Of a DNA stretch of 58,965 nt, positions 25,717-45,148 are shown in pieces. The notes under the pieces were generated by a model. The model had not been told where the DNA came from. It saw only the letters and a list, made by a program, of their open reading frames with translations, and did no database searches. The first letter of the stretch is position 1; each line of letters opens with the position of its first letter. The stretch is from Candidatus Ryanbacteria bacterium RIFCSPHIGHO2_02_FULL_45_17b. Its GTDB lineage: Bacteria > Patescibacteriota > Minisyncoccia > Ryanbacterales > 2-02-FULL-48-12. The position numbers and the translations under genes are program-made. The DNA lies in assembly GCA_001819815.1 (NCBI GenBank), contig MHNO01000010.1:67847-126811 (forward strand). The letters are read 5' to 3'.

Positions 25717-26484
25717 TTATGACTTTCGGAAGATTCCGACGAAACGTCTCGCGTGGTGTATCGGGACTTTGTTAAGAAAATGCGGATAGAAAGTTTTGGT
25801 GAGGAATTGTATGGCAGGATGCAATGTCCAGAGGCGGTTTTTTGCAAGTCGAAAAAAGAAAAGATATAATGTCCGAATATATCCTGTTCCATCTTGTCCT
25901 GTCACTTGATTTGCTATGAAATAGGGGGCAAGGGCGTTACAAAAAGTCGCTTCTGAAAAGTGCTGTTCGTGTTTTTCTATTACCGGCATGAGAAGTGAAG
26001 GACTACTTACGATAATAATACCATTGTCCCGTAGGATGCGTGAGAGTTCTTTTGCTATCCGTTCTCGCCCAGCGCTTGGAACATGTTCCAGTACCTCAAT
26101 AAGAAATATAATATCAAACGATTTGTCTGGGAAAGAAAGTTTATCGATTTGCTCCACATAAAATTTGGCATGTGGCGCAAGAAGTTGCGCAAAAGAGATT
26201 GCCCGTTCGGAGTAATCAACCCCTGTAACCGATTGAGGATTTTTTGTGGCTATCAGTGATGTAAAAAATCCATCGCCGCAGCCCGCATCAAGCACATTTT
26301 TTTCCTTAAAATTTCCCGCGTACATAAGAGCTATGTTCCAATATCCAAAATATACGGCGCCTTTTTTTGTGGCGCGTTCAATGAGCCAGTGATAGGGTAA
26401 AACATATTCTTCTTCTTGGAATTGCTGTGTGCCGCTTTGTCCGGGCGGGGTTGGATGGTTGTTGGTTTTGTCAGGCGTATTCAT
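25717..26484 (-). CDS. Class I SAM-dependent methyltransferase
   Basis: VLDAGCGDGFFTSLI, and DIIFLIEVLEHV. Confidence 0.75.
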   Translation of the reverse strand: MNTPDKTNNHPTPPGQSGTQQFQEEEYVLPYHWLIERATKKGAVYFGYWNIALMYAGNFKEKNVLDAGCGDGFFTSLIATKNPQSVTGVDYSERAISFAQLLAPHAKFYVEQIDKLSFPDKSFDIIFLIEVLEHVPSAGRERIAKELSRILRDNGIIIVSSPSLLMPVIEKHEQHFSEATFCNALAPYFIANQVTGQDGTGYIRTLYLFFFRLAKNRLWTLHPAIQFLTKTFYPHFLNKVPIHHARRFVGIFRKS

Positions 26485-26486
26485 TG

Positions 26487-27446
26487 CTACTTTATGTTAT
26501 TTTTTACTATTCGTTTTAAAACATATTGTATGTACGCATATATGTACAAGAACAAGTATTTACTGCGGAATGGTTTTGTGATAAAAGCAAGACGCGCATA
26601 GTCTCGCGCTTTTCCAAAGTTGTATTCCCTTACGGTAGCAAACGCATGGCCAAGCGTATACGCAAATTCAGCGGAAATATCGGGATATTGCATGTATAAT
26701 ATTCTATGCTTGAGGAATAATTGTTCTCGCGCCGCCCGCCGATCGCTTTTGTTCCGGGAAATACTGTCCTCTGAAACATGGAGCGTAACGCGCACATGAG
26801 GATTGTACAAAAATTCATAATGTTCCGCGAGACGCACAATAAAATCTCCGTCACCGAATACCCGAAAGTTTTCATCGAACTCGCCGATGTTTTCCAAGCA
26901 CGCTCTCTTAAAAAGTAATGCTTGCATGGTAATATAGAAATCCCCCCGCAATATGGTTGTGAGCAGATTATTGTTTGTATGTGTGTAGTTGACGGGCGGC
27001 ACGAAGGCCTTTATGCCACTAAAATATACTTTTTCAATCTGAGAAAATACGCCACCAATCATATCGGGTGTTCCTTGAATGAGAGCGACTTCTTCCCCCA
27101 GTTTTTTCGGATGCCATTCATCGTCCGAATCCTGCAATGCAATGTATGTTCCCACAGAATTTTTTATGCAGGTATTCCGTGATGGATACAAGCCTTTTTT
27201 TGTTTCGTGGCGAATATAACGGATACGGGGGTCATGAAATGAATCAATAAGCGATTTTGTATCATCTGTTGATCCATCATCAACGATAATAAGCTCAAAA
27301 TCCGTAAAAGTTTGGTTCAGGATGCTTTCTATGGAACGTCTTAAAAGGGGGGCGCGGTTGAATGTGGGGATAGAAACACTCACAAGAGGTATTGACATAT
27401 TGGTTCCGATCGTTACATAATTTTTGAGATGGGCACTAGTATTCAA
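26487..27446 (-). CDS. GT2 glycosyltransferase
   Basis: VSVSIPTFNRAPLLRRSIESILNQTFTDFELIIVDDGSTDDT, and LQDSDDEW. The true start may be the internal Met at 27398. Confidence 0.8.
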   Translation of the reverse strand: MNTSAHLKNYVTIGTNMSIPLVSVSIPTFNRAPLLRRSIESILNQTFTDFELIIVDDGSTDDTKSLIDSFHDPRIRYIRHETKKGLYPSRNTCIKNSVGTYIALQDSDDEWHPKKLGEEVALIQGTPDMIGGVFSQIEKVYFSGIKAFVPPVNYTHTNNNLLTTILRGDFYITMQALLFKRACLENIGEFDENFRVFGDGDFIVRLAEHYEFLYNPHVRVTLHVSEDSISRNKSDRRAAREQLFLKHRILYMQYPDISAEFAYTLGHAFATVREYNFGKARDYARLAFITKPFRSKYLFLYIYAYIQYVLKRIVKNNIK

Positions 27447-28116
27447 CCGTATCTCTGCCGCTCATGAGCTCGGCGCGTTCTACGCCCGGTGTGTTTCGCA
27501 GTGCGGCAAGAAACGCGCCGCTGGCAGATTCATTGGCAAGTTTAATACTCAGCGTGTATTCAGTAAACTGTTCATCCAGTGTTTTTGCACTCAAGAATTG
27601 CTGTGTTTTTAATGCTGTGTGCCAAGTAGCAGCTGTTTCCGGTAAAAAGGGCGGCTTTGCGAGGATTATAAGAATATAGCCTCCGCGGCCCGATGCTGCG
27701 GCAGAGGCGAAGTTATACTGATTCAAAAGAAGGATAATTCCTGATATTACCAAGGTGCCCAGAAGCGCAACCACATAATTATTTGTGCCCACCGCAACAC
27801 CAATCGCAAGAGCAAAAAACACAAACGCGATATCGCGGGTTTCTTTCATGATGGTGCGGAAGCGAATCAGGGAAAATGCGCCTAACAAGGCAAATGCGCC
27901 GACAATATTTTCGGTAACAACCATCATAATGAGGTTCGCGATAAGCCCCATAATGATCATGGTAAATATAAATGACTGAGAGTATGAAAGTGTGCGATGG
28001 GTTTTCCGATATACCCAGGCAATTACAAGTTCCAACCCAAACACAAAGAAGAGGTTTATCACCACAATGGCTGCGCTAACTTCTGTTTCTGCAAGTAAAA
28101 TGAAATTATCCAGCAT
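27436..28116 (-). CDS. DUF4956 family membrane protein
   Basis: The LGAFSLIRFRTIMKETRDIAFVFFALAIGVAVG signature, 4-5 TM segments, and position directly after a VTC-domain gene. Confidence 0.7.
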   Translation of the reverse strand: MLDNFILLAETEVSAAIVVINLFFVFGLELVIAWVYRKTHRTLSYSQSFIFTMIIMGLIANLIMMVVTENIVGAFALLGAFSLIRFRTIMKETRDIAFVFFALAIGVAVGTNNYVVALLGTLVISGIILLLNQYNFASAAASGRGGYILIILAKPPFLPETAATWHTALKTQQFLSAKTLDEQFTEYTLSIKLANESASGAFLAALRNTPGVERAELMSGRDTVEY

Positions 28117-28154
28117 ACAAAAATGATACGTCTAAACAAATAATTCGTCAAGCT

Positions 28155-28883
28155 TTATCGCGGAACCGGATGGTAGCGATAAATCGTTTCCACCGATCTG
28201 CCATATTTTGAAAATGCCGTACGCGAGATATCAAATTCACATAACAACAAGCGGAACCAATGGGGTAATGTGTAAGAAAATTTTACTTCCATGACAGTGC
28301 TATCAGTAACGCGCTCCATGAAGGGAATCTCACGCAAATCGCGCGCGGCACAGGCTTCTATATTGGAATCAAATGTTATGCGGAGAGAAGATTGGTGCGA
28401 AGCAATAAGCGGGTAGCGCACGTAGCGCACCGCAACAATCGGTTTCATGCCGTATATCATGAGCGGTAGAAAGATTGGGTGATTTTTGACAAGATCAATT
28501 CGCGGGCCGTAAAGAAGTTCTTGGTAGTTTTTTTCTGAAAGGAGCACACGTTTTTTTGAAACAAGCATTTCATATTTTTCTTTTTTCTCAAGCCATATCT
28601 CCGGTGTTTTATCGGTAAGAAAGGGCTGATAAATTCGGACGCGAATTTTTTTGCGGTGCAAGAAACCGCCGGCCTTATCCGCATAATCCTCTAAAGTGGG
28701 CGTATCAAAATACAAGCTGGTGACAGGATATGACCCGCTGGCATGAATTTGCAATGCTCTCGGGTCCGCTTTCATGCCAAAATGTAGCAAGCGTGAATGA
28801 ATTGCCTGCGCTCTATTTGGGTCCATCACGTATTTAAATTCAAAACGTGTATGCTGTTCCATGTGTTTGTTTAGAGTCCTCAA
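28155..28883 (-). CDS. VTC-domain (polyphosphate polymerase / triphosphate-tunnel) protein
   Basis: FEFKYVM, YPVTSLYFDTP, RKKIRVRIY and WLEKKEKYEMLVSKKRV: alternating basic beta-strands typical of the CYTH/VTC tunnel. Confidence 0.7.
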   Translation of the reverse strand: MRTLNKHMEQHTRFEFKYVMDPNRAQAIHSRLLHFGMKADPRALQIHASGSYPVTSLYFDTPTLEDYADKAGGFLHRKKIRVRIYQPFLTDKTPEIWLEKKEKYEMLVSKKRVLLSEKNYQELLYGPRIDLVKNHPIFLPLMIYGMKPIVAVRYVRYPLIASHQSSLRITFDSNIEACAARDLREIPFMERVTDSTVMEVKFSYTLPHWFRLLLCEFDISRTAFSKYGRSVETIYRYHPVPR

Positions 28884-28927
28884 GTGTACTATCTTTTAAT
28901 TAGTAACGATTATTTTTGAGATGGGAT

Positions 28928-29107
28928 CTAGAGACATCACACTATAGAATCGCACTCCATAAGACATTCGGAGGCGAAACCTCCGAAAATAGCTACTTGG
29001 TAAGATGAAGTCATGGATATATTTTCGGAGGTTTCGCCTCCGAATGTCTTAACGGTTCATCTGTTTTTTCCGCTTCTAAGCGCGATTTCATAGTGTGATG
29101 TCTCTAG
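28928..29107. repeat. Nested inverted-repeat (MITE-like) element between the CotH and VTC genes
   Basis: The outer 18-bp arms are perfect: CTAGAGACATCACACTAT (28928-28945) and its reverse complement at 29090-29107. The inner 31-bp arms are also perfect: AAGACATTCGGAGGCGAAACCTCCGAAAATA (28961-28991) and 29020-29050. Each inner arm also holds its own CGGAGG/CCTCCG hairpin. Confidence 0.85.
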
Positions 29108-31413
29108 TAGGCAATAAGACGCGAGTATTCATCGGCTACGCTATCCTGTTTATTGTCGATAAATATATTATCTTTGAGATACGCGGTTCCTCCTTCTTTG
29201 AAATGAGGTTTTTTTCGATAGAGTCCGATTGCAATTTCATTTGCTTCCATACGATTGTTCATAATCGTTGCAACTGATTGGTCTTTTACCGCAATGCCAT
29301 ATTGGCAGTTCCTGATGCTATTCTCTTTTATAACCGGCTTTGATATTTCTCCAATACTTACACCTTTGTCACTGCAACGTTCCACCGCATTGGAGAGCAC
29401 CTTTATATCGGAAAAGCTGAGATCTATCGCATCACCGTTTTTATCAGGAATAAAATTTTCTGAATAGGAAAATGTATTATGCGCTACAAGCGATTCTTTT
29501 GCGGCAAAATCAATATCAATATGGTCCGCGCTGTTATCTAAAAATAATGAATCCCCAATGCGAGCGGTTCCCGTAACCACATGAATACCATCATCGGCTC
29601 CGGCTCCTTCAATAAACCCATCGTGAAATTCAAAGTCGGCAGCATGCAAGGAGAGCATACCGCTGAAATATATGCCGTTTACTGTTGTGTCTCTGCCGCC
29701 TTGCAAACGGACATGCCGGAACATGTTTTTTTCTTTCCCGGTATTTATGACGGCAAATACTCCCCATTTGTCGTTTGCAAAAAACGGCCGCATGGTAATC
29801 GGTTGAGAGACCGTGCCCGGAGCGTTTATGGGGCTATAGGAAATAAAAGAAACGGAATCACTAAACAACAGATGTGCCCCTTCTCTGATAACAAGGTGAA
29901 GACCGGTGGGCACAATAACATCGCGCGTAAATGTGTGGGTGCCCGGCAATAAGATTATGGTGGTAGGATCAGCGCCCGCGGTAAATTGCGGATTTTTCGA
30001 GAGAAATTCACTTCGCGCGGCATTAATGGCAATGAATGACGCATACGCATCCGTTTTGAATGGCTCGCCAAGGGGATATGATTCCTCCGCAAAACGCAGA
30101 GCAAGGCCGCCATGTTCAATCATTGATTTAAGCGCGGAAAAATTATGTTCAAAAAGCGCGCGATCTTTTTTAATGGCGCTGGCAACTTCGAAAGATGTTG
30201 TCAGTTTTTGCGTGTCGCGATAGGCGGCTGGTCGAATCTGATTGGCGATTTCATCATAATAAGCAAGACCGTCGGGAAGAAAACCAGGATCTTCAAGATA
30301 GGAACCCGCAAATGCTTCAAAATCAGCCTTAAACGGTTCATGTCGAAGGATCCTGTTTAGAAGGCGGTTTTCACCCACATCAATTGAATCTGTAATATTG
30401 ACGAATATGCTGTCAAAAAATATGGATTCGAATTTACCGGTGGCCGGATTGAAATAAAGATTAAGATTTTCGTCGTTATTTTGATTAATTCTGCCGGAGA
30501 GCAAGGCCGCAAACGCCCATCGGAAAAATTGGTCTTTATCCAAAATGGTGAATATTTCATCCGCGAACATTTGTTCAGGGGCATTCGCCGTAAGTGCGGT
30601 AAGATATGCGAGTTGGGAAAATGATTCAGCAGGCATGGTTTCATCAAAGCGGTTTTGCCATTTTGAAAGCCCTTCGGGGCGCAGAAGGTCATTATGTGCT
30701 GGATTTTCTTTATCAGGAGGCATGTCGCGTTCGGCGAATATGGGGCCGAATGGTTTCCGTCGATTTTCCAAAAAAGACTCTTCCCATCCCTCTAGAAGGA
30801 TATAAACTCCCATATCGGAATTATTTAGAACAACGCGCGCCGGTTTTACGTCTGGTGTCATAAGATTCAGGCGATCCGCAAGATATGCCCACAAATAGGG
30901 TTGTACCCACCCTTTATCATCCGGCAACATGAAACGGTAGGCAGTTCTGCCATCCAACGGAGTTTCTGCGGGAAGACCAACTTGCCATGATTTTTTGACT
31001 GCGCTCCAGTGTGGCGATGTTTTGCCGCGGTAGCGAATTTTCGCGTCCGTGGTTACATAATTATTATGGCGAAATTCAGCTTTAACCGTTTTTTTTGACT
31101 CTTCGTACAAACGGCTTTCATCCGGATAATCGGGAAGGTTATTCAGAAGATTAGATCTATCATTGCGGCTGGTATATATTTCATAGACAGGCAATTGCCC
31201 TCCCCCATACAACATGCTGGCAATTACATAAGGAATATCAATAACTTTTTTAAGCGAACGCCACGCAGGCGCAAAATGCCGAACAAGCGGATTTGGATTG
31301 TATGAAATAATATCAAGCCGCGCAGTAAAATCGGCAATATAATCCGTGAAAACAAGGGCAACACCAAAAGAAACAAGAAGAATGAATGTGCCCGCAACCG
31401 CGATGCGTTTCAT
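29104..31413 (-). CDS. CotH kinase family protein with an N-terminal membrane anchor and a C-terminal right-handed beta-helix domain
   Basis: Signal anchor MKRIAVAGTFILLVSFGVALV. CotH-like core (VVLNNSDMGVYILLEGWEESFLENR, FFRWAFAALLSG). C-terminal parallel beta-helix repeats (DNSADHIDIDF, GDAIDLSFSD, CSDKGVSIGE, NCQYGIAVKD). The stop codon lies inside the outer IR arm. Confidence 0.65.
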   Translation of the reverse strand: MKRIAVAGTFILLVSFGVALVFTDYIADFTARLDIISYNPNPLVRHFAPAWRSLKKVIDIPYVIASMLYGGGQLPVYEIYTSRNDRSNLLNNLPDYPDESRLYEESKKTVKAEFRHNNYVTTDAKIRYRGKTSPHWSAVKKSWQVGLPAETPLDGRTAYRFMLPDDKGWVQPYLWAYLADRLNLMTPDVKPARVVLNNSDMGVYILLEGWEESFLENRRKPFGPIFAERDMPPDKENPAHNDLLRPEGLSKWQNRFDETMPAESFSQLAYLTALTANAPEQMFADEIFTILDKDQFFRWAFAALLSGRINQNNDENLNLYFNPATGKFESIFFDSIFVNITDSIDVGENRLLNRILRHEPFKADFEAFAGSYLEDPGFLPDGLAYYDEIANQIRPAAYRDTQKLTTSFEVASAIKKDRALFEHNFSALKSMIEHGGLALRFAEESYPLGEPFKTDAYASFIAINAARSEFLSKNPQFTAGADPTTIILLPGTHTFTRDVIVPTGLHLVIREGAHLLFSDSVSFISYSPINAPGTVSQPITMRPFFANDKWGVFAVINTGKEKNMFRHVRLQGGRDTTVNGIYFSGMLSLHAADFEFHDGFIEGAGADDGIHVVTGTARIGDSLFLDNSADHIDIDFAAKESLVAHNTFSYSENFIPDKNGDAIDLSFSDIKVLSNAVERCSDKGVSIGEISKPVIKENSIRNCQYGIAVKDQSVATIMNNRMEANEIAIGLYRKKPHFKEGGTAYLKDNIFIDNKQDSVADEYSRLIAY

Positions 31414-31463: not shown

Positions 31464-32747
31464 TTATATCATTGCCAGTTTTTTCTGAAAAAGGAAAAAA
31501 GCCAGAAAATAATTGAGGATAATTCCCGCGACGCGCACGGCAACCGCACCCCACAAACCATAGAGAGGAACAAAAACAAGGAAGGCCGCTATTTTAGCAA
31601 CAGGAGGGATGGTGCTTATGATAAACAATTTTTTAATATTACCTTCCGCTTTAAGCGCGCTGGTTGAGATGTTTAGTGGAAAAAAGATAAGGGAAAGAGC
31701 AAGGATTTGGGATGGGAGAATTGATTCCGTGTATGCTGGAAACAAGTAGTGATAGAGTACGGGAGCTGCGAGTATGTAGGCGAGAACGGCCGCCGCAGTT
31801 ACGGGCAATGAACGAAGAACTTTTACGCGAATAGCGCCTTTTAGTTTATCGGTTGTTTCGGCATTTTTTGTTTTCATGGCTATTTTGGGAAACACCATGG
31901 TTAATACCAAGTCAAACAATGTGCGAATTTGTTCTATGGGTGCTATTGCAAAGGAATATACGGCAAGCGTAGAGGGGCCGAGAAAATTGAAAAGTAAAAT
32001 TGCGTCTATGTTGTAGGCGACATTTGGAATAATATCGAGAAGGGTTAGGTGATATCCGTAGGTGAGAGATCCGGGTTCTGTGGGCGCGTTGGCGGGTATA
32101 TTTCGAAGAGATTTTATGGAGTAGATAATGTTTGGCAGACCGTGTCCGATGTAGCTGGCTCCTAGAAGAATGGCGAGGCTGATATTGATTGAAGCATGTC
32201 CATAATAAATGGCAGCAAGAGCGGTTGCCATGAGCAAGCCGTAGAATATGTTGCCCGATATGTTGCGCAGGGCTTTTTGTTTGAATTCTTTTTTCCCGTC
32301 TAAATATGCCCGCCATGTTCCCAATCCTTCTACGAGTGGCGCGAGCGCGGCGGCTACCACAAAGCCAAATGCGAGAGAAATGTTTTGCGGAAAGAAAAAG
32401 TAAAAAAAGGCAAATCCAAACCCAACAACCGTCATGCCGAAAGAAATGAAAAACATGCGCCATGCGGCATCACGGAATGTTCCTTCATAACCGCGCGCAA
32501 CACTGCGCATAACAGATGTCGCAAGGCCGGGGAATGTGAGGATGCTAAACATTCCCATAGCGCTCATGACGTAGCGAAATTCCCCGTAGACGTCCTTCGT
32601 GAGATATTTAGCATACGCCACGGAAAGAAAAAGAAGCACAAGCATGCTCATTATTTTGCCGAAACTCAGCCAAAAACCGTTCGTAATCATGTATGCCGAA
32701 TCAATTTGCAATAATCGGTCAGTGAATTTTCTGATGCGTTGTAGCAT
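31464..32747 (-). CDS. Wzx-like oligosaccharide flippase (MOP superfamily)
   Basis: 427 aa with about 12 TM segments, and the typical N-terminus (NGFWLSFGKIMSMLVLLFLSVAYAKYL). Confidence 0.7.
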   Translation of the reverse strand: MLQRIRKFTDRLLQIDSAYMITNGFWLSFGKIMSMLVLLFLSVAYAKYLTKDVYGEFRYVMSAMGMFSILTFPGLATSVMRSVARGYEGTFRDAAWRMFFISFGMTVVGFGFAFFYFFFPQNISLAFGFVVAAALAPLVEGLGTWRAYLDGKKEFKQKALRNISGNIFYGLLMATALAAIYYGHASINISLAILLGASYIGHGLPNIIYSIKSLRNIPANAPTEPGSLTYGYHLTLLDIIPNVAYNIDAILLFNFLGPSTLAVYSFAIAPIEQIRTLFDLVLTMVFPKIAMKTKNAETTDKLKGAIRVKVLRSLPVTAAAVLAYILAAPVLYHYLFPAYTESILPSQILALSLIFFPLNISTSALKAEGNIKKLFIISTIPPVAKIAAFLVFVPLYGLWGAVAVRVAGIILNYFLAFFLFQKKLAMI

Positions 32748-32798
32748 TATTTGTGTATTATATCAGTATGGTTTTTGCTATGATATAGTCATTGTTTT

Positions 32799-34175
32799 AT
32801 GACAAGAAACGACTGGACCAAATTTGCGTTTTTGAGCGCGTTTGCTATCGTGATAAGTCTTGGAATTGGATTTCTAAGTGGAACGTTGCTGCAAACATCT
32901 TTTGCAGATTATCACGATGATTCAAGCGCCTATATAAGAAGCGCCCGCGCTATACTACATGGGGAGTTTGCGTGGGAGGATGCAGAAGCGTTTAAGAAAC
33001 CGCCCGCGTATTCGATCTTTCTTGCGTTCGTGTATGCGATCATAGGGGAACAGCCGCGCTCTGTTTGGTTTATACAGCTTGTTTTATACATGTGCATACT
33101 ATTTTTTTGGTATCGGATAGGTCTAGAATTACTAAAAGAAAAATCGCACATATGTTTTTTTCTTTTATTGACAACCGCGTATTGGGGTCTTGTATATTAC
33201 GTTTTTAAAATTGAGTCGGAGCTGTTTGCTTTATTTCTTGTAACGGCATTCCTGTTCCTTTTGTTTCGGCGAGAGAATGAGCTCACATGGAAAAACACGG
33301 TTTTGGGGGGAGTAATTCTTGGTGCGCTCATTCTTACAAAGCCGATTTTTTTGTATGCCACCCCTTTTATTATTTGTTTTTTTGTGTGGGACGCATGGTG
33401 GAATGATCGCAAACGCGCAGTCGCACACGCACTGGTTTTTATAGGCATCGTCGCATTGCTGGCGGGTAGCTGGATGACTCGGAATTATCTAGTAACAGGT
33501 GATTATCAGATTGAGCAGCACACGGGACATATCATATGGGGGCGCGGTGCCATTGCAGAAGCGTCATGGCGCGATATTGGCGCCTATACCATTGCCTCCA
33601 TTGGTGGTGATCTTATTGCAGATATATTTATTTCTGGGTATGCGGAAGATCCTGTACCGCTTGCAAGCCGACGTCAAGTCCTCGAACGCATGGAAACAAT
33701 GAGAAATAATGGTGTGAGCGAGTATGATAGTAATGCGTTTTTTCTTACGGGTGGAATAAAAAAGATATGGCAGAATCCTTTTGGATATGTTGTCAGTTCT
33801 ATTCCCATCCTATTGGAGTTGAACGCGCCTGTTAACCATCGCGGATTTTCTCTTGCACATTTGTTTGTAGGAACACATGAAGAAATCCCGCATAGTATAA
33901 AACTTGTTGTTGTGGGTATGTTTCGTGCGGGATGGTTGCTATTTCTTGGGGTAGTTGTGTATGCTGCAGTGCAGGCATGGAGAACCCGCAATAGAAGATG
34001 GTTTATCCTTATTTTTTTCACGATTTACGTTAACATTGCCTATGCTCTTGTCATTACACCCATTGAGCCACGATTTTTAGTGCCGGTGTTGCCATTCTAT
34101 TTTATATTTTTTGTTGTTGGTATTCAGTCATGCTTGACGCGCGTTAGAAAGATATATAGCGTAGAAGTATCATGA
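32799..34175 (+). CDS. GT-C membrane glycosyltransferase #2 (ArnT/PMT_2-like)
   Basis: About 12 TM segments, an early loop DDSSAYIRSARAILHGEF ... KPPAYS, and TKPIFLY. Confidence 0.7.
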   Translation: MTRNDWTKFAFLSAFAIVISLGIGFLSGTLLQTSFADYHDDSSAYIRSARAILHGEFAWEDAEAFKKPPAYSIFLAFVYAIIGEQPRSVWFIQLVLYMCILFFWYRIGLELLKEKSHICFFLLLTTAYWGLVYYVFKIESELFALFLVTAFLFLLFRRENELTWKNTVLGGVILGALILTKPIFLYATPFIICFFVWDAWWNDRKRAVAHALVFIGIVALLAGSWMTRNYLVTGDYQIEQHTGHIIWGRGAIAEASWRDIGAYTIASIGGDLIADIFISGYAEDPVPLASRRQVLERMETMRNNGVSEYDSNAFFLTGGIKKIWQNPFGYVVSSIPILLELNAPVNHRGFSLAHLFVGTHEEIPHSIKLVVVGMFRAGWLLFLGVVVYAAVQAWRTRNRRWFILIFFTIYVNIAYALVITPIEPRFLVPVLPFYFIFFVVGIQSCLTRVRKIYSVEVS

Positions 34176-34954
34176 AAGTCGTTATTTTATGCGGAGGGCA
34201 GGGAACGCGCCTTCGGGAAGAAACCGAATATCGTCCTAAGCCGCTTGTTATGGTGGGAGATCGGCCTATTTTGTGGCACATTATGAAGTTGTATTCTCAT
34301 TATGGTTTCAATGAGTTTATTCTCTGTCTTGGCTACAAGGGCGACATGATAAAAAATTATTTTCTGAATTATGACGAACTTGCGCACGATTTTACCCTAC
34401 AGCTTGGTTCTGGCAAAAAGGAAGTCCATCATCATGCCAATAATACCCCTGACTGGAAAATAACATTTGCCGATACCGGCCAGGCATGCGAAACCGGAAG
34501 CCGTATCGCGCGTATTCAAAAGTATATTGGGGATGACGAAGAATTCTTTCTTACCTACGGGGATGCGGTAACGGATGTTAATATTTCGGACTTGTACCGG
34601 CATCACCGCGAAAAAGGAAAAATGGTTACGGTAACAGGTATTCAGCCACCCAATCCATTCGGAGTAATTGAGGCGCGAGAAGGCGTAGTTACGTCGTTTA
34701 CGGAAAAGCCGCAGTCGCAAGACTGGGCAAACGGCGGTTTTTTTGTGTGCAACAAACGCGTGTTTGCGTTTTTATCTTCTGATGGTTCTGTTATTTTTGA
34801 ACAAGGGCCTCTGCGTCAGGTCGCTTCTTTAGGGGAACTTGCGATGTATCACCACAATAAGTTTTGGCATTGCGTAGATACGTTTAAGCACTTGGAAGGA
34901 TTGAACGCCTACTATAACAAAGGTACGCGCCCTTGGATGGTGTGGGAAAATTAA
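34172..34954 (+). CDS. rfbF: Glucose-1-phosphate cytidylyltransferase
   Basis: MKVVILCGGQGTRLREETEYRPKPLVMVGDRPILWHIMKLYSHYGFNEFILCLGYKG matches the RfbF/DdhA N-terminus almost residue for residue. Confidence 0.9.
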   Translation: MKVVILCGGQGTRLREETEYRPKPLVMVGDRPILWHIMKLYSHYGFNEFILCLGYKGDMIKNYFLNYDELAHDFTLQLGSGKKEVHHHANNTPDWKITFADTGQACETGSRIARIQKYIGDDEEFFLTYGDAVTDVNISDLYRHHREKGKMVTVTGIQPPNPFGVIEAREGVVTSFTEKPQSQDWANGGFFVCNKRVFAFLSSDGSVIFEQGPLRQVASLGELAMYHHNKFWHCVDTFKHLEGLNAYYNKGTRPWMVWEN

Positions 34955-36000
34955 TACAGCATTTTTCGCATATCAGGGTCATAAGGAATCAGCGGCTCGC
35001 CGGTGGTTATTTTTTTTACAAAGTCCGGGTTTGCGAGAATAAAGCGGCCATAGGTTACTAAGTCTACAAAACCGTCTGTAATTTCTTTTTCCGCTTCTTC
35101 TGGCGGCAAGCTCGCGCCTGCCATGATAATATGGGGCCACAACGGGCGGGCCATGCGGACAATTTTTCCCGATGTGGAATGATAAATATCTAACGTGTCG
35201 CTTCGGGCACAGCTGATGTCTAGAATACGCAAACCAAGTTTATCCAATTGAGGAATGAGATACGCAAGCATAGTATCCATATCGGGCCATTCATACAACA
35301 CTCCTCCCATTTCACGCGAAGGGGAAATACGAAGCGCGGTTCGTTCGGGTCCTGCAACATCAAGCACTGCTTTGGTAACTTCCAAACCAAATCGGCAACG
35401 ATTTTCGACCGAACCACCGTACTCGTCGGCGCGTTGATTGATGCGGCTATCAAAAAACTGATCAATAATATATCCGTGTCCGCCATGAATTTCTACGCCA
35501 TCAAACTCTGCCAGGAGCGCTTTTTTTGTTGCGTCGCGGAACATATCAACAATTTCAGGAACCTCATCATGTTCCAGCGCGCGCGGGGTGACCATGGGTA
35601 CTTGCATGTGCGGGGCGTTTCCTTCCGGACGCACGGCGGAGGAAGAAACGGGAAGCTTGCCGCCGAGGTAATCAGGGTGGGATATGCGCCCGCAGTGCCA
35701 CAGTTGGCAGAAGATTTTTGCGCCGTGGATGTGCATCGCATTTGTAATTTTTTTCCATTCCGCAACCTGTTCGTCGGTATAGATATATGGCACATTGGGA
35801 TACCCGTCGCCGTTTGGGTGAATAATGGTGCCCTCGGTAAGAATAAGCCCTACATCGTTTGCGGCGCGGCGCTCATAATACGCGCGCATGAGATCGGTGG
35901 GGTTATGGTCAGCATCCGCAAAGTTTCGTGTCATGGCAGACATGACTACGCGGTTTTTGAGCGAGAGGCCGTATTTGGAAAATGGTTCAAGGAGTTTCAT
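34951..36000 (-). CDS. Old Yellow Enzyme family NADH:flavin oxidoreductase (ene-reductase)
   Basis: LKNRVVMSAMTR, HGAKIFCQLWHCGR, GVEIHGGHGYIIDQFF and RADEYGGSVENRCRF. Confidence 0.85.
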   Translation of the reverse strand: MKLLEPFSKYGLSLKNRVVMSAMTRNFADADHNPTDLMRAYYERRAANDVGLILTEGTIIHPNGDGYPNVPYIYTDEQVAEWKKITNAMHIHGAKIFCQLWHCGRISHPDYLGGKLPVSSSAVRPEGNAPHMQVPMVTPRALEHDEVPEIVDMFRDATKKALLAEFDGVEIHGGHGYIIDQFFDSRINQRADEYGGSVENRCRFGLEVTKAVLDVAGPERTALRISPSREMGGVLYEWPDMDTMLAYLIPQLDKLGLRILDISCARSDTLDIYHSTSGKIVRMARPLWPHIIMAGASLPPEEAEKEITDGFVDLVTYGRFILANPDFVKKITTGEPLIPYDPDMRKMLY

Positions 36001-36925
36001 GGAATAGGTTTTGAAAATAATCTTTTTGCAAATATTCTCCCAGCGCTTCCCGCCAATTTCTCATCCTGTCTAACCCCTTTTCTTGCAAACGTTTATTTTT
36101 CATCACGGCACGGTTGGGGCGTTTCGCTTTTTCTTTATATTCATCTGCCGATATTTTTGTAATAGTAATTTTATCGCTAATATCGAGTATTTGCACCATC
36201 GCGGTTGCTAATTCAAAAAATGATGCTTCCCCGTGGCTCGCCATATGATAGATGCCATTTTTTTTGTTCTCAAGCAACACGGTGCAGTTTTCCGCGAGGT
36301 CTTTTGTGTATGTTGGTTGCCAAACGCGATCACTAACGGAAATTGTTCGCACGTTTTCGTTTATGCTTTTTTTAAGGACGGACGCGAATTTTCCCACAAA
36401 GTTTTTATCTTTTTCAAATCCGCCAAAGAATCCGCCCATGCGTACTATAAGCGCGTCTGGCAATTCTTTACGGACAAGTTGTTCCGCTTCCCATTTTGCT
36501 TCTCCATATAAGGAAAGCGGGTGAGGTGTTGTTTCTTCGGTGATGGGATTCTCCGCGCCATCGAAAATAAGAAACGATTGCGGGTAACATAATTTTGCTC
36601 CAGTTGCTTTCGCAAGTTCAATAATGTTTTTTGTTCCCCCGAGATGATTTTCAAAACAAGCATCGCGATTCTCTTCGCAAAAATCCGCGTTCACAATGCC
36701 TGCACAATGAATTATGTAATCTGGTTTCCATTCCTGTTCCCGGAGCACCGTGTCGCGGTTGGCAACATCAAGCGCGGCGTGATCCAAAGCACGGACGAGA
36801 TATCCTTTTTCAGAAAGATGTTCCGCAAACGCACTCCCGAGCATTCCTCCGGCGCCTGTTATAAGCACGCATTTTTGAGTTGTGTCCATACGGAGCATGG
36901 TAGCGTATGTAATTTCTATTGACAA
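35987..36925 (-). CDS. RmlD-like SDR (dTDP-4-dehydrorhamnose reductase family)
   Basis: VLITGAGGMLGS, LDVANRDTV, IIHCAGIVNADFCEEN, and YGEAKWEAE (YxxxK). The start may be one of the internal Mets at 36898 or 36889. Confidence 0.7.
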   Translation of the reverse strand: MSIEITYATMLRMDTTQKCVLITGAGGMLGSAFAEHLSEKGYLVRALDHAALDVANRDTVLREQEWKPDYIIHCAGIVNADFCEENRDACFENHLGGTKNIIELAKATGAKLCYPQSFLIFDGAENPITEETTPHPLSLYGEAKWEAEQLVRKELPDALIVRMGGFFGGFEKDKNFVGKFASVLKKSINENVRTISVSDRVWQPTYTKDLAENCTVLLENKKNGIYHMASHGEASFFELATAMVQILDISDKITITKISADEYKEKAKRPNRAVMKNKRLQEKGLDRMRNWREALGEYLQKDYFQNLFHETP

Positions 36926-38589: not shown

Positions 38590-40026
38590 ATGAGTATGAA
38601 GAATCTTTTCATATTTTTTCAAAAGCACAAAATGGAAACAATATTATTTTCTGCGGCAGTTCTTTTGCGCGTGGGGGCGTTTCTATTGTTGTTCTCTCTT
38701 GCTTCTTCGTCATCCGGATTTCTTTTTTCTTCAGCCACCCATATGTACCCAAACATTGGCGCTGATTCTGGCGGATACATCGGTACCGCGCATGTGCTAT
38801 TGGAAGAAGGCAGGTTTGCTTCCCCTGGCGAATCGGATCCGCAAAGTTATTTGATGCCCGGGTATCCGTTGCTACTCGCGTTTATTTTTTTTCTCGGTGG
38901 CGGTTTACCAAGTGTGATAGTATTGCAGGCGGTGTTGGCGGGATTTTCCGCAGTGCTTATTTTTCGCATAGGAGCATTTATTGCGCCGAAGATTGGTTTT
39001 ATTGCCGCGTGGATATATGTGCTTGATCCTATTTCAATTTTTTATGCGACCACTATTCTTACGGAGACTTTTTTTATTTTTTTTACGCTTCTGTGTGTAT
39101 ACTTGTTTCTTCGTGCGCACAAAAGCGCGTGGTGGGAAATGGTCGTTGTCGGGTTTTTGTTGGGACTTTTGGTTTACATTCGACCGAATGCCATTGTGTT
39201 TCCAGCGGTGTTTATGGGTATAATGCTTGTGTGGAAAAATTCCTTATGGACATGGCGGCAGACAATTTTACGCGCTGTCGCGCTTGGGGCAACGGCTTTT
39301 TTGATTGTGTTTCCGTGGATGCTTCGTAATAAAATTCTTTTTGACACATGGGATCTTACGGCAGTAGCTACTATACAATGGTACATGTATAATGCACCGC
39401 TGTATTATGCATATACCCATGGCGGTACGCACAGCGAAGCGCTTGAAGTATTTCGCAGGCGCCTGTATGAAATAAATCCCTATCAAAGCGACCAAGGCAC
39501 GTTGCGTAACGCGCCGTACATGCGGGAAGTCGCGTTTGAATATTTGCGGAAAGACCCATTCGGATACGCGTGGTTCCATGTGGTAAAATCGGCTCCCTTT
39601 TTTGTATCTGATGGCTTGCGTGATATTGCCCGTCGTATGGCGCTTGTGGGGGAACAGCCAGATATCGGCAGTTTGATTCTTACTGGCAACATTCGTGGTG
39701 TTATTGTGTTTTTCTCGGAGCATATGCGCGCCGCGGTTCTTTTGGCGGTGGGAGTTATGTTTTGGAGTTTGATTACGTTAGGCATGCTTGGAGCGGTAGT
39801 AGCTGGCAGAGTGTTGCCAATCGCGGGCAAACGCACGTTATATACATGTATTGGTATTGTATTCATCACCATGTTGGTTGCCGCGGGTCCGAACGCAAAC
39901 GCGCGGTATCGTTTAAGTGTAAGTCCGTTTATGTTTATTGCGGCGTCATATGGGTTAGCGCACTTGCGAAAATGGATAAATTATCGTACAATAATTTCGC
40001 ATGAATCCGGTATATTGGAAACATAA
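38590..40026 (+). CDS. GT-C membrane glycosyltransferase #3 (ArnT/PMT_2-like)
   Basis: About 12 TM segments, an early loop [23 protein letters not shown] ... MPGYPLL, and YIRPNAIVF. Confidence 0.7.
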
Positions 40027-45056: not shown

Positions 45057-45148
45057 TTTCTCTTAGAAGAGAAAATCATTCCGAGCGTAGCTGAGGGATT
45101 ACCTTCACGCCCTGCGTTCTTGGCGCAGAGTAGTTTTTCTAATACCAT

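What the first reader, a model, noticed from the sequence alone, without database searches (positions are those of the whole stretch)
27436..31413. CotH kinase, VTC-domain protein and DUF4956 operon embedded in the glycan cluster
The sequence shows three consecutive minus-strand genes. The first is a 769-aa membrane-anchored CotH-family protein fused to a right-handed beta-helix domain. The second is a soluble VTC (triphosphate-tunnel, polyphosphate-polymerase-type) domain protein. The third is a DUF4956 multi-TM protein. A GT2 gene and a methyltransferase gene follow on the same strand, and a Wzx flippase gene precedes them. CotH proteins are atypical protein kinases, and the VTC catalytic domain makes polyphosphate in eukaryotic VTC complexes. 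As far as I know, the bacterial CotH/VTC/DUF4956 association recurs in genomes without an assigned function. Inference: this could be a split, VTC-like machine in which the cytoplasmic tunnel domain works with the DUF4956 membrane partner. It might export polyphosphate or phosphorylate a surface polymer, with the extracytoplasmic CotH/beta-helix protein acting on the glycan or protein product.
Basis: partly seen in the sequence, partly recalled or inferred. Interest (0 to 1): 0.65.

Follow-up and report, generated by a model that had tools for sequence, protein, structure and literature searches.

The report
CotH–VTC–DUF4956 cassette in a glycan locus
An ultra-small groundwater bacterium carries, inside its surface-sugar gene cluster, a widespread but never-tested three-gene set: a yeast-type polyphosphate-making enzyme, a membrane partner and an outward-facing kinase-like, sugar-binding protein. 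The set is real and tightly conserved, its function is unknown, and the kinase-like active site is degenerate in this copy.

Summary
Three minus-strand genes encode an N-terminally anchored CotH-fold plus beta-helix protein (769 aa), a soluble Vtc4-like VTC domain (235 aa) and a five-helix DUF4956 membrane protein. A Wzx flippase gene lies upstream, and GT2 and methyltransferase genes lie downstream. The host is Candidatus Ryanbacteria (CPR).

The linkage is far beyond chance. In 80 VTC-centred loci from other species, DUF4956 follows VTC in all 77 untruncated loci. CotH is adjacent in 76 and nearby in one more.

All nine Vtc4 catalytic residues are identical here, including K458, which marks active Vtc4.

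DUF4956 is MgtC-like (five helices plus an ACT-like domain), not homologous to the eukaryotic VTC channel. The CotH domain lacks the catalytic Asp. Its clade normally has His there (141 of 150), and this copy has Asn. This copy has also lost two more hallmark residues of the clade.

The triad is already published as accessory genes of Gram-positive Pel loci, without a function. This is a beta-helix, His-type variant coupled to Wzx.

The parts
31464..32747 (-). Wzx-type (Polysacc_synt, MOP family) flippase, 427 aa, 50 bp upstream of CotH
   Evidence: Pfam PF01943 E=1.4e-11. It has many hydrophobic segments. A Polysacc_synt gene lies next to the triad in all four CPR relatives examined: L001, L081, L082 and L083.
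29104..31413 (-). CotH-fold plus right-handed beta-helix protein, 769 aa, with an N-terminal signal anchor and the bulk of the protein extracytoplasmic
   Evidence: Pfam CotH, Beta_helix and NosD. AF2 pLDDT 91, pTM 0.89. Foldseek gives 5JD9/5JDA at TM 0.81 and beta-helix lyases or hydrolases. There is a single membrane segment at residues 1-29.
31228..31320 (-). Conserved juxtamembrane helix of CotH (residues 32-62, RLDIISYNPNPLVRHFAPAWRSLKKVIDIPY), a candidate docking segment
   Evidence: This is one of the most conserved stretches in the 22-sequence alignment A1; P49 and D59 are nearly invariant. It is helical in the AF2 model, H42-69. The docking role is inference.
30094..31191 (-). CotH kinase-fold domain (residues about 75-440) with a degenerate catalytic loop: N310 where the clade has His and Bacillus has Asp, E315 where the clade has His, N318 where the clade has Arg. 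N316 and D334 are retained.
   Evidence: phmmer alignment to 5JD9, MAFFT alignment with Asp-type relatives, and a tally over 150 representatives. D228Q inactivates B. subtilis CotH (PMC7821199).
29104..29985 (-). C-terminal parallel beta-helix (CASH/NosD-like) domain, residues about 477-769
   Evidence: Pfam Beta_helix and NosD. Foldseek matches PL6 alginate lyase, GH87 glucanase, AlgG epimerase and NosD at E 1e-4 to 1e-2.
28928..29107 (.). Nested, near-perfect inverted repeat (hairpin of about 180 nt) in the CotH-VTC spacer. It is probably a multi-copy REP/MITE-like palindromic element and not part of the cassette's function.
   Evidence: RNA MFE -102.8 kcal/mol, z=-15. Arms I1 and I2. No Rfam family reaches its gathering score. 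Metagenome contigs break here, depth doubles, and the arms continue into unrelated flanks. It is absent from the same spacer in L001.
28155..28862 (-). Soluble VTC (Vtc4-type triphosphate-tunnel) domain protein, 235 aa counted from the ATG at 28862 (the ORF extends to a TTG at 28883)
   Evidence: Pfam VTC E=1.1e-31. The profile hits Vtc4 structure 3G3Q at E=1.8e-19. K10, R74, R76, K94, Y147, R149, E192, S218 and K219 correspond to Vtc4 K200, R264, R266, K281, Y359, R361, E426, S457 and K458. No membrane segment is predicted. The database entry P0037 is 235 aa.
27436..28116 (-). DUF4956 (MgtC-like) membrane protein, 226 aa: five membrane helices, an invariant cytoplasmic loop RFRTxxKETRD, a cytoplasmic ACT/ferredoxin-like C-terminal domain, and an invariant C-terminal -EY
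   Evidence: Pfam DUF4956 E=1.2e-12; MgtC E=0.007, below its cut-off. Alignment A3. AF2 pLDDT 76. Foldseek gives weak matches to the MgtC C-terminal domain 2LQJ, PGDH ACT and NikR. Charge distribution.
26487..27446 (-). GT2 glycosyltransferase, with its likely start at the ATG at 27398, directly downstream of DUF4956
   Evidence: Pfam Glycos_transf_2 E=1.1e-34, matching from residue 23. NCBIfam gives only sub-threshold hits to TuaG, WcaA and PglI.
25717..26484 (-). SAM-dependent methyltransferase, starting 2 nt after the GT2 stop
   Evidence: Pfam Methyltransf_11 E=2.4e-21.

Best explanation
SHOWN. This is the Candidatus Ryanbacteria copy of a widespread prokaryotic cassette, CotH-VTC-DUF4956, built into a Wzx-dependent surface-glycan locus. 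Its parts sit on both sides of the membrane:
- a cytoplasmic Vtc4-type tunnel enzyme with every catalytic residue intact;
- an MgtC-like membrane protein with five helices and a cytoplasmic ACT-like domain;
- a membrane-anchored protein that faces outward and carries a CotH kinase fold and a polysaccharide-type beta-helix.

INFERRED, the most likely mechanism. The VTC enzyme polymerises phosphate from NTP into a polyphosphate chain at the inner face of the membrane. DUF4956, probably as an oligomer, receives the chain at its invariant basic loop and passes it, or its phosphoryl groups, across the membrane. The CotH/beta-helix protein then holds the flipped glycan and uses or attaches the phosphate. 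The product would be a phosphate-bearing, anionic surface polymer.

In this particular copy the CotH catalytic loop has lost the clade's His, His and Arg. Its CotH domain may therefore only bind phosphate or polyphosphate and position it next to the beta-helix, not transfer it.
For: - Family and fold assignments.
- All nine Vtc4 triphosphate- and Mn-binding residues are identical, including K458, which separates active Vtc4 from inactive Vtc2 and Vtc3 (residue roles from bioRxiv 10.1101/2023.01.27.525886).
- Gene linkage is obligate across phyla. DUF4956 lies directly after VTC in 77 of 77 untruncated loci. CotH is adjacent on the same strand in 76 of 80 loci, and in L003 it lies directly downstream on the opposite strand. 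Two of the remaining three loci are cut by contig ends.
- The topology places VTC inside, DUF4956 in the membrane and CotH outside.
- Glycan genes dominate the neighbourhoods. A Wzx gene abuts the triad in all five CPR loci despite shuffled gene order.
- In one diderm variant (L010) CotH is absent, and an HlyD-like adaptor and an OEP-like channel follow DUF4956. That fits DUF4956 acting as an inner-membrane export component.
- The phosphate-binding N-lobe residues of CotH (R127, R129, G130, H135, K140, K141, S142), N316 and the metal-binding D334 are invariant.
- In S. intermedius, deleting the DUF4956 or CotH homologue changed Pel levels and aggregation (PMC12345266).
Against: - No bacterial VTC protein has been assayed, and no transport by DUF4956 or MgtC-type proteins is known.
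- DUF4956 is not homologous to the eukaryotic VTC channel. Its invariant basic residues lie in a cytoplasmic loop; they do not line the membrane helices.
- No kinase-fold enzyme is known to use polyphosphate.
- Deleting the VTC homologue in S. intermedius gave no reported aggregation or Pel phenotype, whereas deleting its two partners did.
- In this copy the CotH loop is degenerate: N310, E315 and N318. Among close CPR relatives the His position is variable (His in 23 of 32), which argues against an essential catalytic role there.
- An earlier internal check of this scan priced the export reading at about 5%.
Confidence: 0.3

Rival explanations
1. Regulatory or sensing module. The VTC tunnel domain binds or hydrolyses a triphosphate or short polyphosphate ligand as a read-out of phosphate or energy status. 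The MgtC-like DUF4956, through its ACT-like ligand-binding domain, passes this signal on to the glycan export and assembly machinery (Wzx, GTs) or to the outward-facing CotH/beta-helix protein. Nothing is exported.
For: - DUF4956 has the MgtC architecture. MgtC is a regulator (of F1Fo ATPase and PhoR), not a known transporter (discussion in PMC12345266; fold results).
- ACT-like domains are typical ligand sensors.
- The triphosphate-tunnel superfamily contains hydrolases and cyclases as well as polymerases. The bacterial proteins keep an E-x-K remnant of the CYTH ExExK motif: R6, E8 and K10 are nearly invariant.
- In S. intermedius the DUF4956 deletion produced more Pel, a regulator-like phenotype.
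Against: - Every residue shown to be needed for Vtc4 polymerase activity is conserved across distant phyla, including the polymerase-specific K458.
- A pure sensor would not need an obligate extracytoplasmic partner in about 78 of 79 loci.
- The HlyD/OEP variant points to export.
Confidence: 0.25
2. Two loosely coupled functions. VTC and DUF4956 form a PPK-independent, membrane-tethered polyphosphate synthase whose product stays in the cytoplasm as storage or as a metal or stress buffer. The CotH/beta-helix protein is an independent surface enzyme that binds or trims glycan (lyase, hydrolase or epimerase type), and its CotH fold is a non-catalytic module.
For: - The authors of the S. intermedius study themselves suggested the polyphosphate may stay cytoplasmic.
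- The beta-helix resembles lyases, hydrolases and epimerases.
- The catalytic loop of CotH is degenerate in this copy and relaxed in close CPR relatives.
- Some relatives lack the beta-helix, or carry extra CotH paralogues, which suggests modularity.
Against: - Same-strand adjacency of CotH to VTC-DUF4956 in nearly every lineage, and co-variation of cassette subtypes (the His-type or Asp-type CotH goes with different DUF4956 C-termini), argue for one functional unit.
- The phosphate-binding residues of the CotH N-lobe and the metal-binding Asp stay invariant.
Confidence: 0.15
3. Lipid-linked route. The VTC enzyme phosphorylates or extends a phosphate on a polyprenyl-phosphate-linked intermediate at the inner leaflet, with DUF4956 presenting the lipid. 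The neighbouring Wzx flips the charged intermediate, and the CotH/beta-helix protein transfers the phosphate-bearing unit to the surface polymer.
For: - A Wzx gene abuts the triad in 5 of 5 CPR loci. Its called start overlaps the end of DUF4956 in L082 and L083.
- PMT_2 (GT-C) transferases, which use polyprenyl-phosphate donors outside the membrane, sit in the same synteny block.
- All known extracytoplasmic phosphotransfer in bacteria uses lipid-linked donors (established knowledge: LtaS, EptA, TagU-type ligases).
Against: - Outside CPR, Wzx is rare next to the triad: 2 of 99 neighbouring genes. The cassette also accompanies synthase-dependent Pel and chitin-synthase-like systems.
- No triphosphate-tunnel enzyme is known to act on lipid-linked substrates.
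Confidence: 0.1
4. Classical CotH function. The outward-facing protein is an ATP-dependent Ser/Thr protein kinase, as in Bacillus spore coats, that phosphorylates surface proteins. VTC and DUF4956 are unrelated neighbours.
For: The CotH fold and Pfam membership are confirmed. B. subtilis CotH is a proven protein kinase (PMC7821199).
Against: - The catalytic Asp is absent: Asn here and His in the clade. The D228Q change kills the Bacillus enzyme.
- No ATP source exists outside a monoderm cell.
- The fused beta-helix points to a glycan substrate.
- The linkage to VTC-DUF4956 is obligate.
Confidence: 0.04

Closest known systems
cotH / 'poly-phosphate polymerase' (VTC) / DUF4956 (/DUF4832) accessory genes of Gram-positive pel operons (Whitfield et al. 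2020, PMC7112168; S. intermedius SIR_1594-1592, PMC12345266), and the VTC-'tubulin'-CotH genes of C. perfringens NELoc-2 (PMC2879425)
   Same: The same three families are present, adjacent and co-oriented, next to exopolysaccharide genes. CotH is predicted to be secreted or outward-facing, VTC cytoplasmic, and DUF4956 a membrane protein with an ACT-like tail. No function is assigned.
   Different: - No pel genes were found among the flanking genes scanned (window 14-50 kb); this locus is Wzx-type.
- No DUF4832 hydrolase was found among them.
- CotH is fused to a beta-helix where the published relatives carry Fn3 or LTD domains.
- The published type keeps the catalytic Asp. This clade has His, and this copy has Asn.
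- The 2025 paper states that the synteny was not found outside Pel loci. The loci examined here show otherwise.
Eukaryotic VTC complex (yeast Vtc4/Vtc3 or Vtc2/Vtc1; PDB 3G3Q, 7YTJ, 8I6V)
   Same: The catalytic tunnel domain is homologous (profile E=1.8e-19), with all triphosphate- and Mn-binding residues identical. As in yeast, the enzyme is paired with a membrane component.
   Different: - There is no SPX domain, and no fused three-helix VTC (DUF202) membrane domain.
- The membrane partner is a separate, unrelated MgtC-like protein with five helices.
- There is no Vtc1, Vtc2 or Vtc3 equivalent.
- The target compartment would be the cell exterior, not a vacuole lumen.
- Activity is untested.
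Bacillus CotH spore-coat Ser/Thr kinase (PF08757; PDB 5JD9/5JDA)
   Same: The fold matches (TM 0.81), the protein is a Pfam member, and it retains the catalytic-loop Asn (N316) and the metal-binding Asp (D334, corresponding to B. subtilis D251).
   Different: - The catalytic Asp (B. subtilis D228) is replaced.
- The protein is membrane-anchored and extracytoplasmic, not located in the mother-cell cytoplasm.
- It is fused to a glycan-type beta-helix.
- It is genetically tied to VTC-DUF4956.
MgtC/SapB family (Salmonella MgtC, E. coli YhiD; M. tuberculosis MgtC C-terminal domain, PDB 2LQJ)
   Same: Five membrane helices are followed by a cytoplasmic ferredoxin/ACT-like domain. There is a weak Pfam MgtC match and a weak Foldseek match to 2LQJ. 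JGI annotators name the homologues 'YhiD'.
   Different: The MgtC Pfam score is below its gathering cut-off (17.2 against 31.4 bits). The invariant RFRTxxKETRD loop and the C-terminal -EY are specific to DUF4956. MgtC is not linked to VTC or CotH.
Secretory-pathway glycan kinases with a protein-kinase fold (Fam20B xylose kinase, POMK/SGK196). This is an analogy from my own knowledge and was not tested.
   Same: A kinase-fold enzyme acts on a glycan outside the cytosol.
   Different: Those enzymes use lumenal ATP and keep the catalytic Asp. No homology was tested here.

Membership tests
CotH kinase family (PF08757; Bacillus CotH) | Match to the family HMM above the curated cut-off | tested here: met
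   66.7 bits against a cut-off of 23.8, E=3.4e-18, residues 126-422.
CotH kinase family (PF08757; Bacillus CotH) | Atypical kinase fold of B. cereus CotH | tested here: met
   The AF2 model (pLDDT 91) matches 5JD9 at Foldseek E=1.8e-14, TM (target) 0.81.
CotH kinase family (PF08757; Bacillus CotH) | Catalytic Asp (B. subtilis D228; the D228Q change is inactive) | tested here: not met
   The position aligns to N310 (next residue Q311). The clade has His in 141 of 150 representatives. Asp-type relatives in Firmicutes and Actinobacteria align cleanly with the Bacillus Asp.
CotH kinase family (PF08757; Bacillus CotH) | Metal-binding Asp (B. subtilis D251) and catalytic-loop Asn | tested here: met
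   D334 is Asp in 150 of 150 representatives, and N316 is Asn in 149 of 150.
CotH kinase family (PF08757; Bacillus CotH) | ATP-dependent Ser/Thr phosphorylation of protein substrates | not testable with these tools
   This needs a biochemical assay.
Vtc4-type polyphosphate polymerase (PF09359 VTC domain) | Match to the family HMM above the cut-off, and homology to the Vtc4 catalytic domain | tested here: met
   110.6 bits against a cut-off of 23. The A2 profile hits 3G3Q at E=1.8e-19.
Vtc4-type polyphosphate polymerase (PF09359 VTC domain) | Triphosphate- and Mn-binding residues K200, R264, R266, K281, Y359, R361, E426, S457 and K458 (K458 is Ile or Leu in inactive Vtc2 and Vtc3) | tested here: met
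   All nine are identical: K10, R74, R76, K94, Y147, R149, E192, S218 and K219. They are invariant in 31 homologues.
Eukaryotic VTC complex | Fused C-terminal three-helix VTC membrane domain forming a pentameric channel with Vtc1; N-terminal SPX domain | tested here: not met
   The protein is 235 aa with only the tunnel domain and no membrane segment. The partner DUF4956 has a different fold with five helices and no Vtc1-like match.
Eukaryotic VTC complex | Polyphosphate synthesis coupled to translocation | not testable with these tools
   This needs expression, a polyphosphate assay and reconstitution.
DUF4956 (PF16316) / MgtC-like | HMM match above the cut-off; multi-helix N-terminal domain plus a soluble C-terminal domain | tested here: met
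   48.3 bits against a cut-off of 30.6. AF2 gives five helices plus a beta-alpha-beta-beta-alpha-beta domain.
DUF4956 (PF16316) / MgtC-like | Membership of Pfam MgtC (PF02308) | tested here: inconclusive
   17.2 bits against a cut-off of 31.4. Foldseek to the MgtC C-terminal domain 2LQJ gives E=3.7e-3.
Gram-positive Pel accessory cluster (Whitfield 2020) | cotH, a VTC-type 'polyphosphate polymerase' and DUF4956 contiguous and co-oriented | tested here: met
Gram-positive Pel accessory cluster (Whitfield 2020) | Contiguity with pelDEA(DA)FG; a DUF4832 or DGC/PDE partner | tested here: not met
   Pfam scans of 30 flanking ORFs across window 14-50 kb show Wzx, GT1, GT2, PMT_2, sugar-nucleotide enzymes and methyltransferases, but no Pel-specific family and no DUF4832.
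Wzx/Wzy-dependent glycan assembly locus | MOP-family flippase together with glycosyltransferases and sugar-nucleotide genes | tested here: met
   Polysacc_synt, several GT1 and GT2 genes, RmlD-like and GDP-Man-dehydratase-like enzymes, and a DegT aminotransferase.
Wzx/Wzy-dependent glycan assembly locus | Wzy polymerase and an initiating phosphoglycosyl transferase | tested here: inconclusive
   No Wzy_C or initiating-transferase family was seen in the ORFs scanned. The 478-aa ORF at 38590-40026 has no Pfam hit and only a weak GT-C-like NCBIfam hit. A Wzy_C gene is present in the relative L082.

The most novel reading that the evidence does not exclude
Prokaryotes, including CPR bacteria with minimal metabolism, have their own VTC-type polyphosphate synthase-translocase: a soluble Vtc4-like tunnel enzyme docked on an oligomeric MgtC-like DUF4956 conduit. 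It delivers polyphosphate to the outside of the membrane. There a CotH-fold enzyme that has swapped its catalytic Asp for His uses polyphosphate in place of ATP to phosphorylate or polyphosphorylate surface glycans. That would be an ATP-independent energy and phosphoryl currency for the cell exterior. The Ryanbacteria copy, with Asn at this position, would be a derived form that only binds.
Probability: 0.08. Interest if true: 0.9.

Novelty: new variant of a known kind. Interest (0 to 1): 0.5.

Why it matters
Reviews treat VTC as the eukaryote-type polyphosphate polymerase and PPK as the prokaryote-type one (PMC12526157). A cassette found across many phyla of bacteria carries a Vtc4-like enzyme with a perfect catalytic site, always paired with one membrane protein and almost always with an outward-facing kinase-fold protein. 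It is therefore a sizeable blind spot; earlier notes of this scan also report it in archaea.

If the cassette exports polyphosphate or phosphoryl groups, it would answer how phosphate chemistry is powered outside the membrane without ATP. It would also add a new class of surface-polymer modification relevant to biofilms, since Pel loci of streptococci and clostridia carry it.

The present copy adds three things:
- The cassette is not specific to Pel loci.
- A large subfamily of beta-helix-fused CotH proteins uses His in place of the catalytic Asp.
- Within CPR bacteria the catalytic loop is decaying while the phosphate-binding residues persist. This helps separate binding roles from catalytic roles.

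As a single locus, however, it is one more instance of a module that is already published and that this scan has already seen many times.

Tried and rejected
- I could not count cassette copies in the genome, nor check for ppk1, ppk2 or ppx.
- A single-sequence PDB search with the VTC protein found nothing; a profile was needed.
- A PDB sequence search with DUF4956 gave only chance-level membrane-protein hits.
- NCBIfam has no model for any of the three proteins. PADLOC gave no hit, so there is no sign of a defence system.
- No Rfam family reaches its gathering score on the intergenic hairpin; there are only sub-threshold, hairpin-like hits.
- No RNA runs hold the locus, only DNA metagenomes, so operon structure could not be read from transcripts.
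- I tested whether an HlyD/TolC-type export pair generally follows DUF4956 in diderm loci. It does not. It occurs only in L010 among the loci examined, and the Pfam scores there are weak.
- My first CotH HMM, built from CPR sequences, missed the Firmicutes and Actinobacteria CotH proteins. This first looked like absence and was corrected with Pfam and a broader HMM.
- The overlap between DUF4956 and GT2 suggested by the longest ORF is probably an artefact of an upstream TTG. I therefore do not claim translational coupling.
- The original CotH kinase paper (PMC4922149) is not held. Residue roles were taken from PMC7821199.

Full report
**1. What is in the sequence**

The minus strand of window 25.7-32.7 kb carries six co-oriented ORFs. 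In order of transcription they are:

| Gene | Coordinates | Size |
|---|---|---|
| Polysacc_synt (Wzx-type) flippase | 31464-32747 | 427 aa |
| CotH + Beta_helix/NosD protein | 29104-31413 | 769 aa |
| VTC-domain protein | 28155-28883 | 235 aa from the ATG at 28862 |
| DUF4956 protein | 27436-28116 | 226 aa |
| GT2 glycosyltransferase | 26487-27446 | 319 aa |
| SAM methyltransferase | 25717-26484 | 255 aa |

All of these match their Pfam families above the curated cut-offs. The wider window is a very large glycan locus. It holds several GT1 and GT2 genes, two PMT_2 (GT-C) transferases, sugar-nucleotide dehydratases and epimerases, a DegT aminotransferase, a GDSL acylhydrolase, a 2OG oxygenase and several methyltransferases.

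The closest homologues of all three proteins come from Patescibacteria/Parcubacteria metagenome bins. Notes of this scan identify the genome as a groundwater Candidatus Ryanbacteria.

The best database match to the VTC protein is 235 aa long and begins MEQHTRFEFKY, so the ATG at 28862 is the likely start. The GT2 Pfam match begins at residue 23, and an internal Met at residue 17 gives the usual GT2 N-terminus. The apparent 11-nt overlap between DUF4956 and GT2 is therefore probably not real.

The locus is reproduced with zero differences in contigs of four metagenome runs from different samples and studies. The unusual residues described below are therefore not assembly errors.

**2. Anatomy of the three proteins**

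*CotH protein.* It has one hydrophobic segment at residues 1-29, preceded by the basic MKR. This is a signal anchor that puts the rest of the protein outside the membrane. The AlphaFold2 model built on 22 homologues is confident (pLDDT 91, pTM 0.89). Residues about 75-440 superpose on the B. cereus CotH kinase 5JD9/5JDA (Foldseek E=1.8e-14, TM 0.81). Residues about 477-769 form a parallel beta-helix. Its nearest structures are PL6 alginate lyases, GH87 glucanase, isopullulanase, AlgG epimerase and NosD. A juxtamembrane helix (residues 32-62) is one of the most conserved stretches among close relatives.

*VTC protein.* It has no membrane segment. A profile of 31 homologues hits the yeast Vtc4 catalytic domain (3G3Q, E=1.8e-19). 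In an explicit alignment, all nine residues that bind the triphosphate and Mn2+ in the Vtc4 cryo-EM structure are identical. These are also the residues whose mutation lowers polyphosphate (bioRxiv 10.1101/2023.01.27.525886):

| Vtc4 | K200 | R264 | R266 | K281 | Y359 | R361 | E426 | S457 | K458 |
|---|---|---|---|---|---|---|---|---|---|
| Window protein | K10 | R74 | R76 | K94 | Y147 | R149 | E192 | S218 | K219 |

R196, K294, R373 and K428 are also identical. K458 is the residue that distinguishes active Vtc4 from the inactive Vtc2 and Vtc3 subunits. These positions are invariant across the 31 homologues.

*DUF4956 protein.* The AF2 model (pLDDT 76) shows five membrane helices, a short helix in the loop between helices 3 and 4, and a C-terminal beta-alpha-beta-beta-alpha-beta domain. 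That domain gives weak matches to ACT-type and ferredoxin-like folds, including the MgtC C-terminal domain 2LQJ. The charge distribution puts the N-terminus outside. It puts the RKTHR loop, the RFRTIMKETRD loop and the C-terminal domain inside. The segment NIVGAFALLGAFSLIRFRTxxKETRD is nearly invariant, as is the C-terminal -EY. There is no similarity to the three-helix VTC membrane domain.

**3. Is the association more than chance?**

I fetched 80 loci around VTC homologues from one genome per species and scanned their ORFs with HMMs built here and with Pfam.

- *DUF4956.* It lies directly downstream of VTC in 77 of 80 loci. The three exceptions are contigs that end right after VTC.
- *CotH.* After I broadened the CotH model, CotH is adjacent on the same strand in 76 of 80 loci. 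In L003 it lies directly downstream on the opposite strand. Two of the remaining three loci are truncated; L006 retains only the beta-helix end of the upstream gene.
- *Exception.* Only L010 (Polyangiales) truly lacks CotH. There an HlyD-like and an OEP-like gene follow DUF4956 (weak scores).

The sample is redundant, with about 50 Collinsella species. It still spans CPR (Ryanbacteria, Paceibacteria, Peregrinibacteria), Planctomycetota, Alpha-, Gamma- and Deltaproteobacteria, Desulfobacterota, Campylobacterales, Fermentibacteria, Actinobacteria, Firmicutes and Tenericutes.

Among 99 genes flanking the triad in 27 non-redundant loci, glycan families are the most frequent: GT1/GT4, GT2, the PelF-associated DUF3492, UDP-glucose dehydrogenase, polysaccharide deacetylase and Wzx.

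In the CPR relatives the link to a Wzx gene is strict although the gene order is shuffled:

| Locus | Gene order | Source |
|---|---|---|
| Window | Wzx-CotH-VTC-DUF4956 | |
| L001 | CotH-VTC-DUF4956-Wzx | |
| L081 | Wzx-CotH-CotH-VTC-DUF4956 | |
| L082 | VTC-DUF4956-Wzx-CotH | |
| L083 | CotH-VTC-DUF4956-Wzx | |

L081 also shares the window's block of RmlD-like epimerase, OYE, NTP-transferase and PMT_2 genes next to Wzx.

**4. The CotH active site**

B. subtilis CotH needs D228 (the D228Q change is inactive) and D251 (PMC7821199). In the phmmer alignment to 5JD9, and in a MAFFT alignment of 26 CotH domains, the D251 equivalent is kept (D334) and so is the catalytic-loop Asn (N316). The D228 equivalent falls on N310.

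The alignment splits the VTC-linked CotH proteins into two types:
- *Asp type.* These are plain, LTD- or Fn3-fused proteins of Firmicutes, Actinobacteria and Tenericutes, and they keep the Asp.
- *His type.* These are mostly beta-helix-fused proteins of CPR, Proteobacteria, Planctomycetota and others, and they have His at that position.

A profile of the His-type domain finds 15,150 cluster representatives at E<=1e-3 and 1,353 at E<=1e-30. In the best 150:

| Position (window residue) | Clade residue | Count |
|---|---|---|
| 310 (N) | His | 141/150 |
| 315 (E) | His | 138/150 |
| 318 (N) | Arg | 139/150 |

The resulting clade motif is Q-[TS]-x-H-[YF]-D-x-x-H-N-W-R...W-D. The window protein reads G-R-I-N-Q-N-N-D-E-N-L-N...F-D, so all three hallmark residues are gone.

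In 32 close CPR relatives, positions 315 and 318 have diverged from the clade's His and Arg in essentially all of them. Position 310 is His in only 23. By contrast R127, R129, G130, H135, K140, K141, S142, N197, E208, N316, D334 and D400 remain essentially invariant. The part of the site that binds phosphate and metal is therefore under selection. The proposed catalytic base is relaxed in this lineage and absent in this copy.

**5. What it most likely does**

*Shown.* The parts are distributed across the membrane: VTC inside, DUF4956 in the membrane and CotH/beta-helix outside. Genetic linkage is obligate, the Vtc4-type active site is intact, and the cassette is embedded in glycan loci.

*Inferred.* The VTC enzyme makes polyphosphate at the membrane. 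DUF4956 takes the chain, or its phosphoryl groups, across. The outward-facing protein applies it to the flipped glycan. I put this at about 0.3, for these reasons:
- No bacterial VTC has been assayed.
- MgtC-like proteins are known as regulators, not channels.
- No kinase fold is known to use polyphosphate.
- In S. intermedius, deleting the DUF4956 and CotH homologues changed Pel level and aggregation, but deleting the VTC gene did not (PMC12345266).

*Main rivals:*
- A sensing or regulatory module, with the tunnel and ACT domains reading phosphate or energy status: 0.25.
- An intracellular polyphosphate synthase merely co-located with an independent glycan-processing surface protein: 0.15.
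- A lipid-linked route through the neighbouring Wzx: 0.10.
- A classical ATP-dependent protein kinase: 0.04.

For this copy specifically, the degenerate loop makes a binding or scaffolding role for the CotH domain more likely than catalysis.

**6. Comparison with what is known**

The triad is in print:
- Whitfield et al. 2020 list cotH, a poly-phosphate polymerase gene and DUF4956 (plus DUF4832 or a DGC/PDE) as accessory genes contiguous with Gram-positive pel operons.
- The 2025 S. intermedius paper describes and deletes them.
- C. perfringens NELoc-2 shows VTC with a 'tubulin'-annotated membrane protein beside CotH and a chitin-synthase-like GT2.

None of these assigns a function. A full-text search for DUF4956 returns only five papers, and none of those I read characterises the protein biochemically.

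The 2025 paper states that the synteny was not found outside Pel loci. The loci examined here, including this window, show that it is common outside them.

I did not find the beta-helix-fused, His-type CotH subfamily or the strict Wzx pairing in CPR in the searched literature. Earlier agents of this scan have noted both independently in other genomes.

Relative to the yeast VTC complex, only the catalytic domain is homologous. The SPX domain and the VTC membrane domain are absent, and the membrane partner is unrelated. The system may work like VTC but is not a member of that complex.

**7. Verdict**

This is a new variant of a known but unexplained cassette, not a new kind of system, and this scan has already met the cassette in hundreds of genomes. 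The value specific to this locus is threefold:
- the clean demonstration that every Vtc4 catalytic residue survives in a CPR genome;
- the Wzx coupling;
- the natural Asn variant at the His position.

Interest is 0.5. The boldest reading that the evidence does not exclude is polyphosphate as an extracellular phosphoryl currency used by His-type CotH enzymes. I put it at about 0.08; it would be of high interest if true.

**8. Limits**

Whole-genome questions (ppk genes, cassette copy number) remain open.
- No RNA data exist for this organism.

Noticed in passing
window 28928-29107: The 220-bp spacer between CotH and VTC is filled by a nested, near-perfect inverted repeat: 32-nt inner arms at 100% and 29-nt outer arms at 90%. 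Folded as RNA it gives -102.8 kcal/mol (z=-15). Metagenome contigs break exactly here, depth doubles, and the arms occur (with 2-3 mismatches) on other contigs with unrelated flanks. It is therefore a multi-copy palindromic (REP/MITE-like) element, and it is absent from the same spacer in another Ryanbacteria genome (L001).
   Followed up: partly
window 45137-45336: A second nested inverted-repeat pair with similar architecture (arms 45137-45162/45311-45336 and 45167-45191/45275-45299) lies in another intergenic gap. It may be another member of the same class of palindromic elements.
   Followed up: no
L001, L081, L082, L083 and window 31464-36925: In five Parcubacteria loci a Wzx (Polysacc_synt) gene always abuts the CotH-VTC-DUF4956 triad although the gene order differs. 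L081 also shares the window's block of RmlD-like, OYE (Oxidored_FMN), NTP-transferase, PMT_2 and Wzx genes. In L082 and L083 the called Wzx start overlaps the end of DUF4956.
   Followed up: partly
DUF4956 C-termini in L001-L080; window 27436-27444: The DUF4956 C-terminus co-varies with the CotH type. Cassettes with His-type, mostly beta-helix-fused CotH end in -[DE]-[VI]-[DE]-[YF]-COOH (here -VEY). Asp-type cassettes of Firmicutes and Actinobacteria end in -[DE][YF]xx (for example -GEYHG, -NDFGA). An acidic-aromatic tail could plug or dock on the basic VTC tunnel exit, by analogy with the acidic regulatory loop of yeast Vtc3. This is untested.
   Followed up: partly
L010 11428-13786: A Polyangiales locus lacks CotH. 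An HlyD-like adaptor and an OEP (TolC-like) gene directly follow VTC-DUF4956, with weak Pfam scores. This variant would fit DUF4956 being the inner-membrane part of an export route. It was not seen in seven other diderm loci checked.
   Followed up: partly
L002 6167-10014, L009 5524-9924, L081 8001-11652, L077 11370-18690: Several cassettes carry two or three tandem CotH paralogues, often one with and one without the beta-helix. One paralogue (L002a) has a fully degenerate catalytic loop, which suggests active and inactive pairs.
   Followed up: no
window 31228-31320 (CotH residues 32-62): The juxtamembrane helix just outside the membrane anchor (NPNPLVRHFAPAWRSLKKVIDIPY) is more conserved among CPR homologues than most of the kinase domain. 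It is a candidate contact site for a membrane partner.
   Followed up: no
Literature (PMC12345266): The 2025 mBio paper states that the three-gene synteny was not found outside Pel loci. The 80 loci examined here show that it is common in non-Pel contexts: Wzx-type loci, chitin-synthase-like GT2 neighbours, and loci with no glycan genes.
   Followed up: yes
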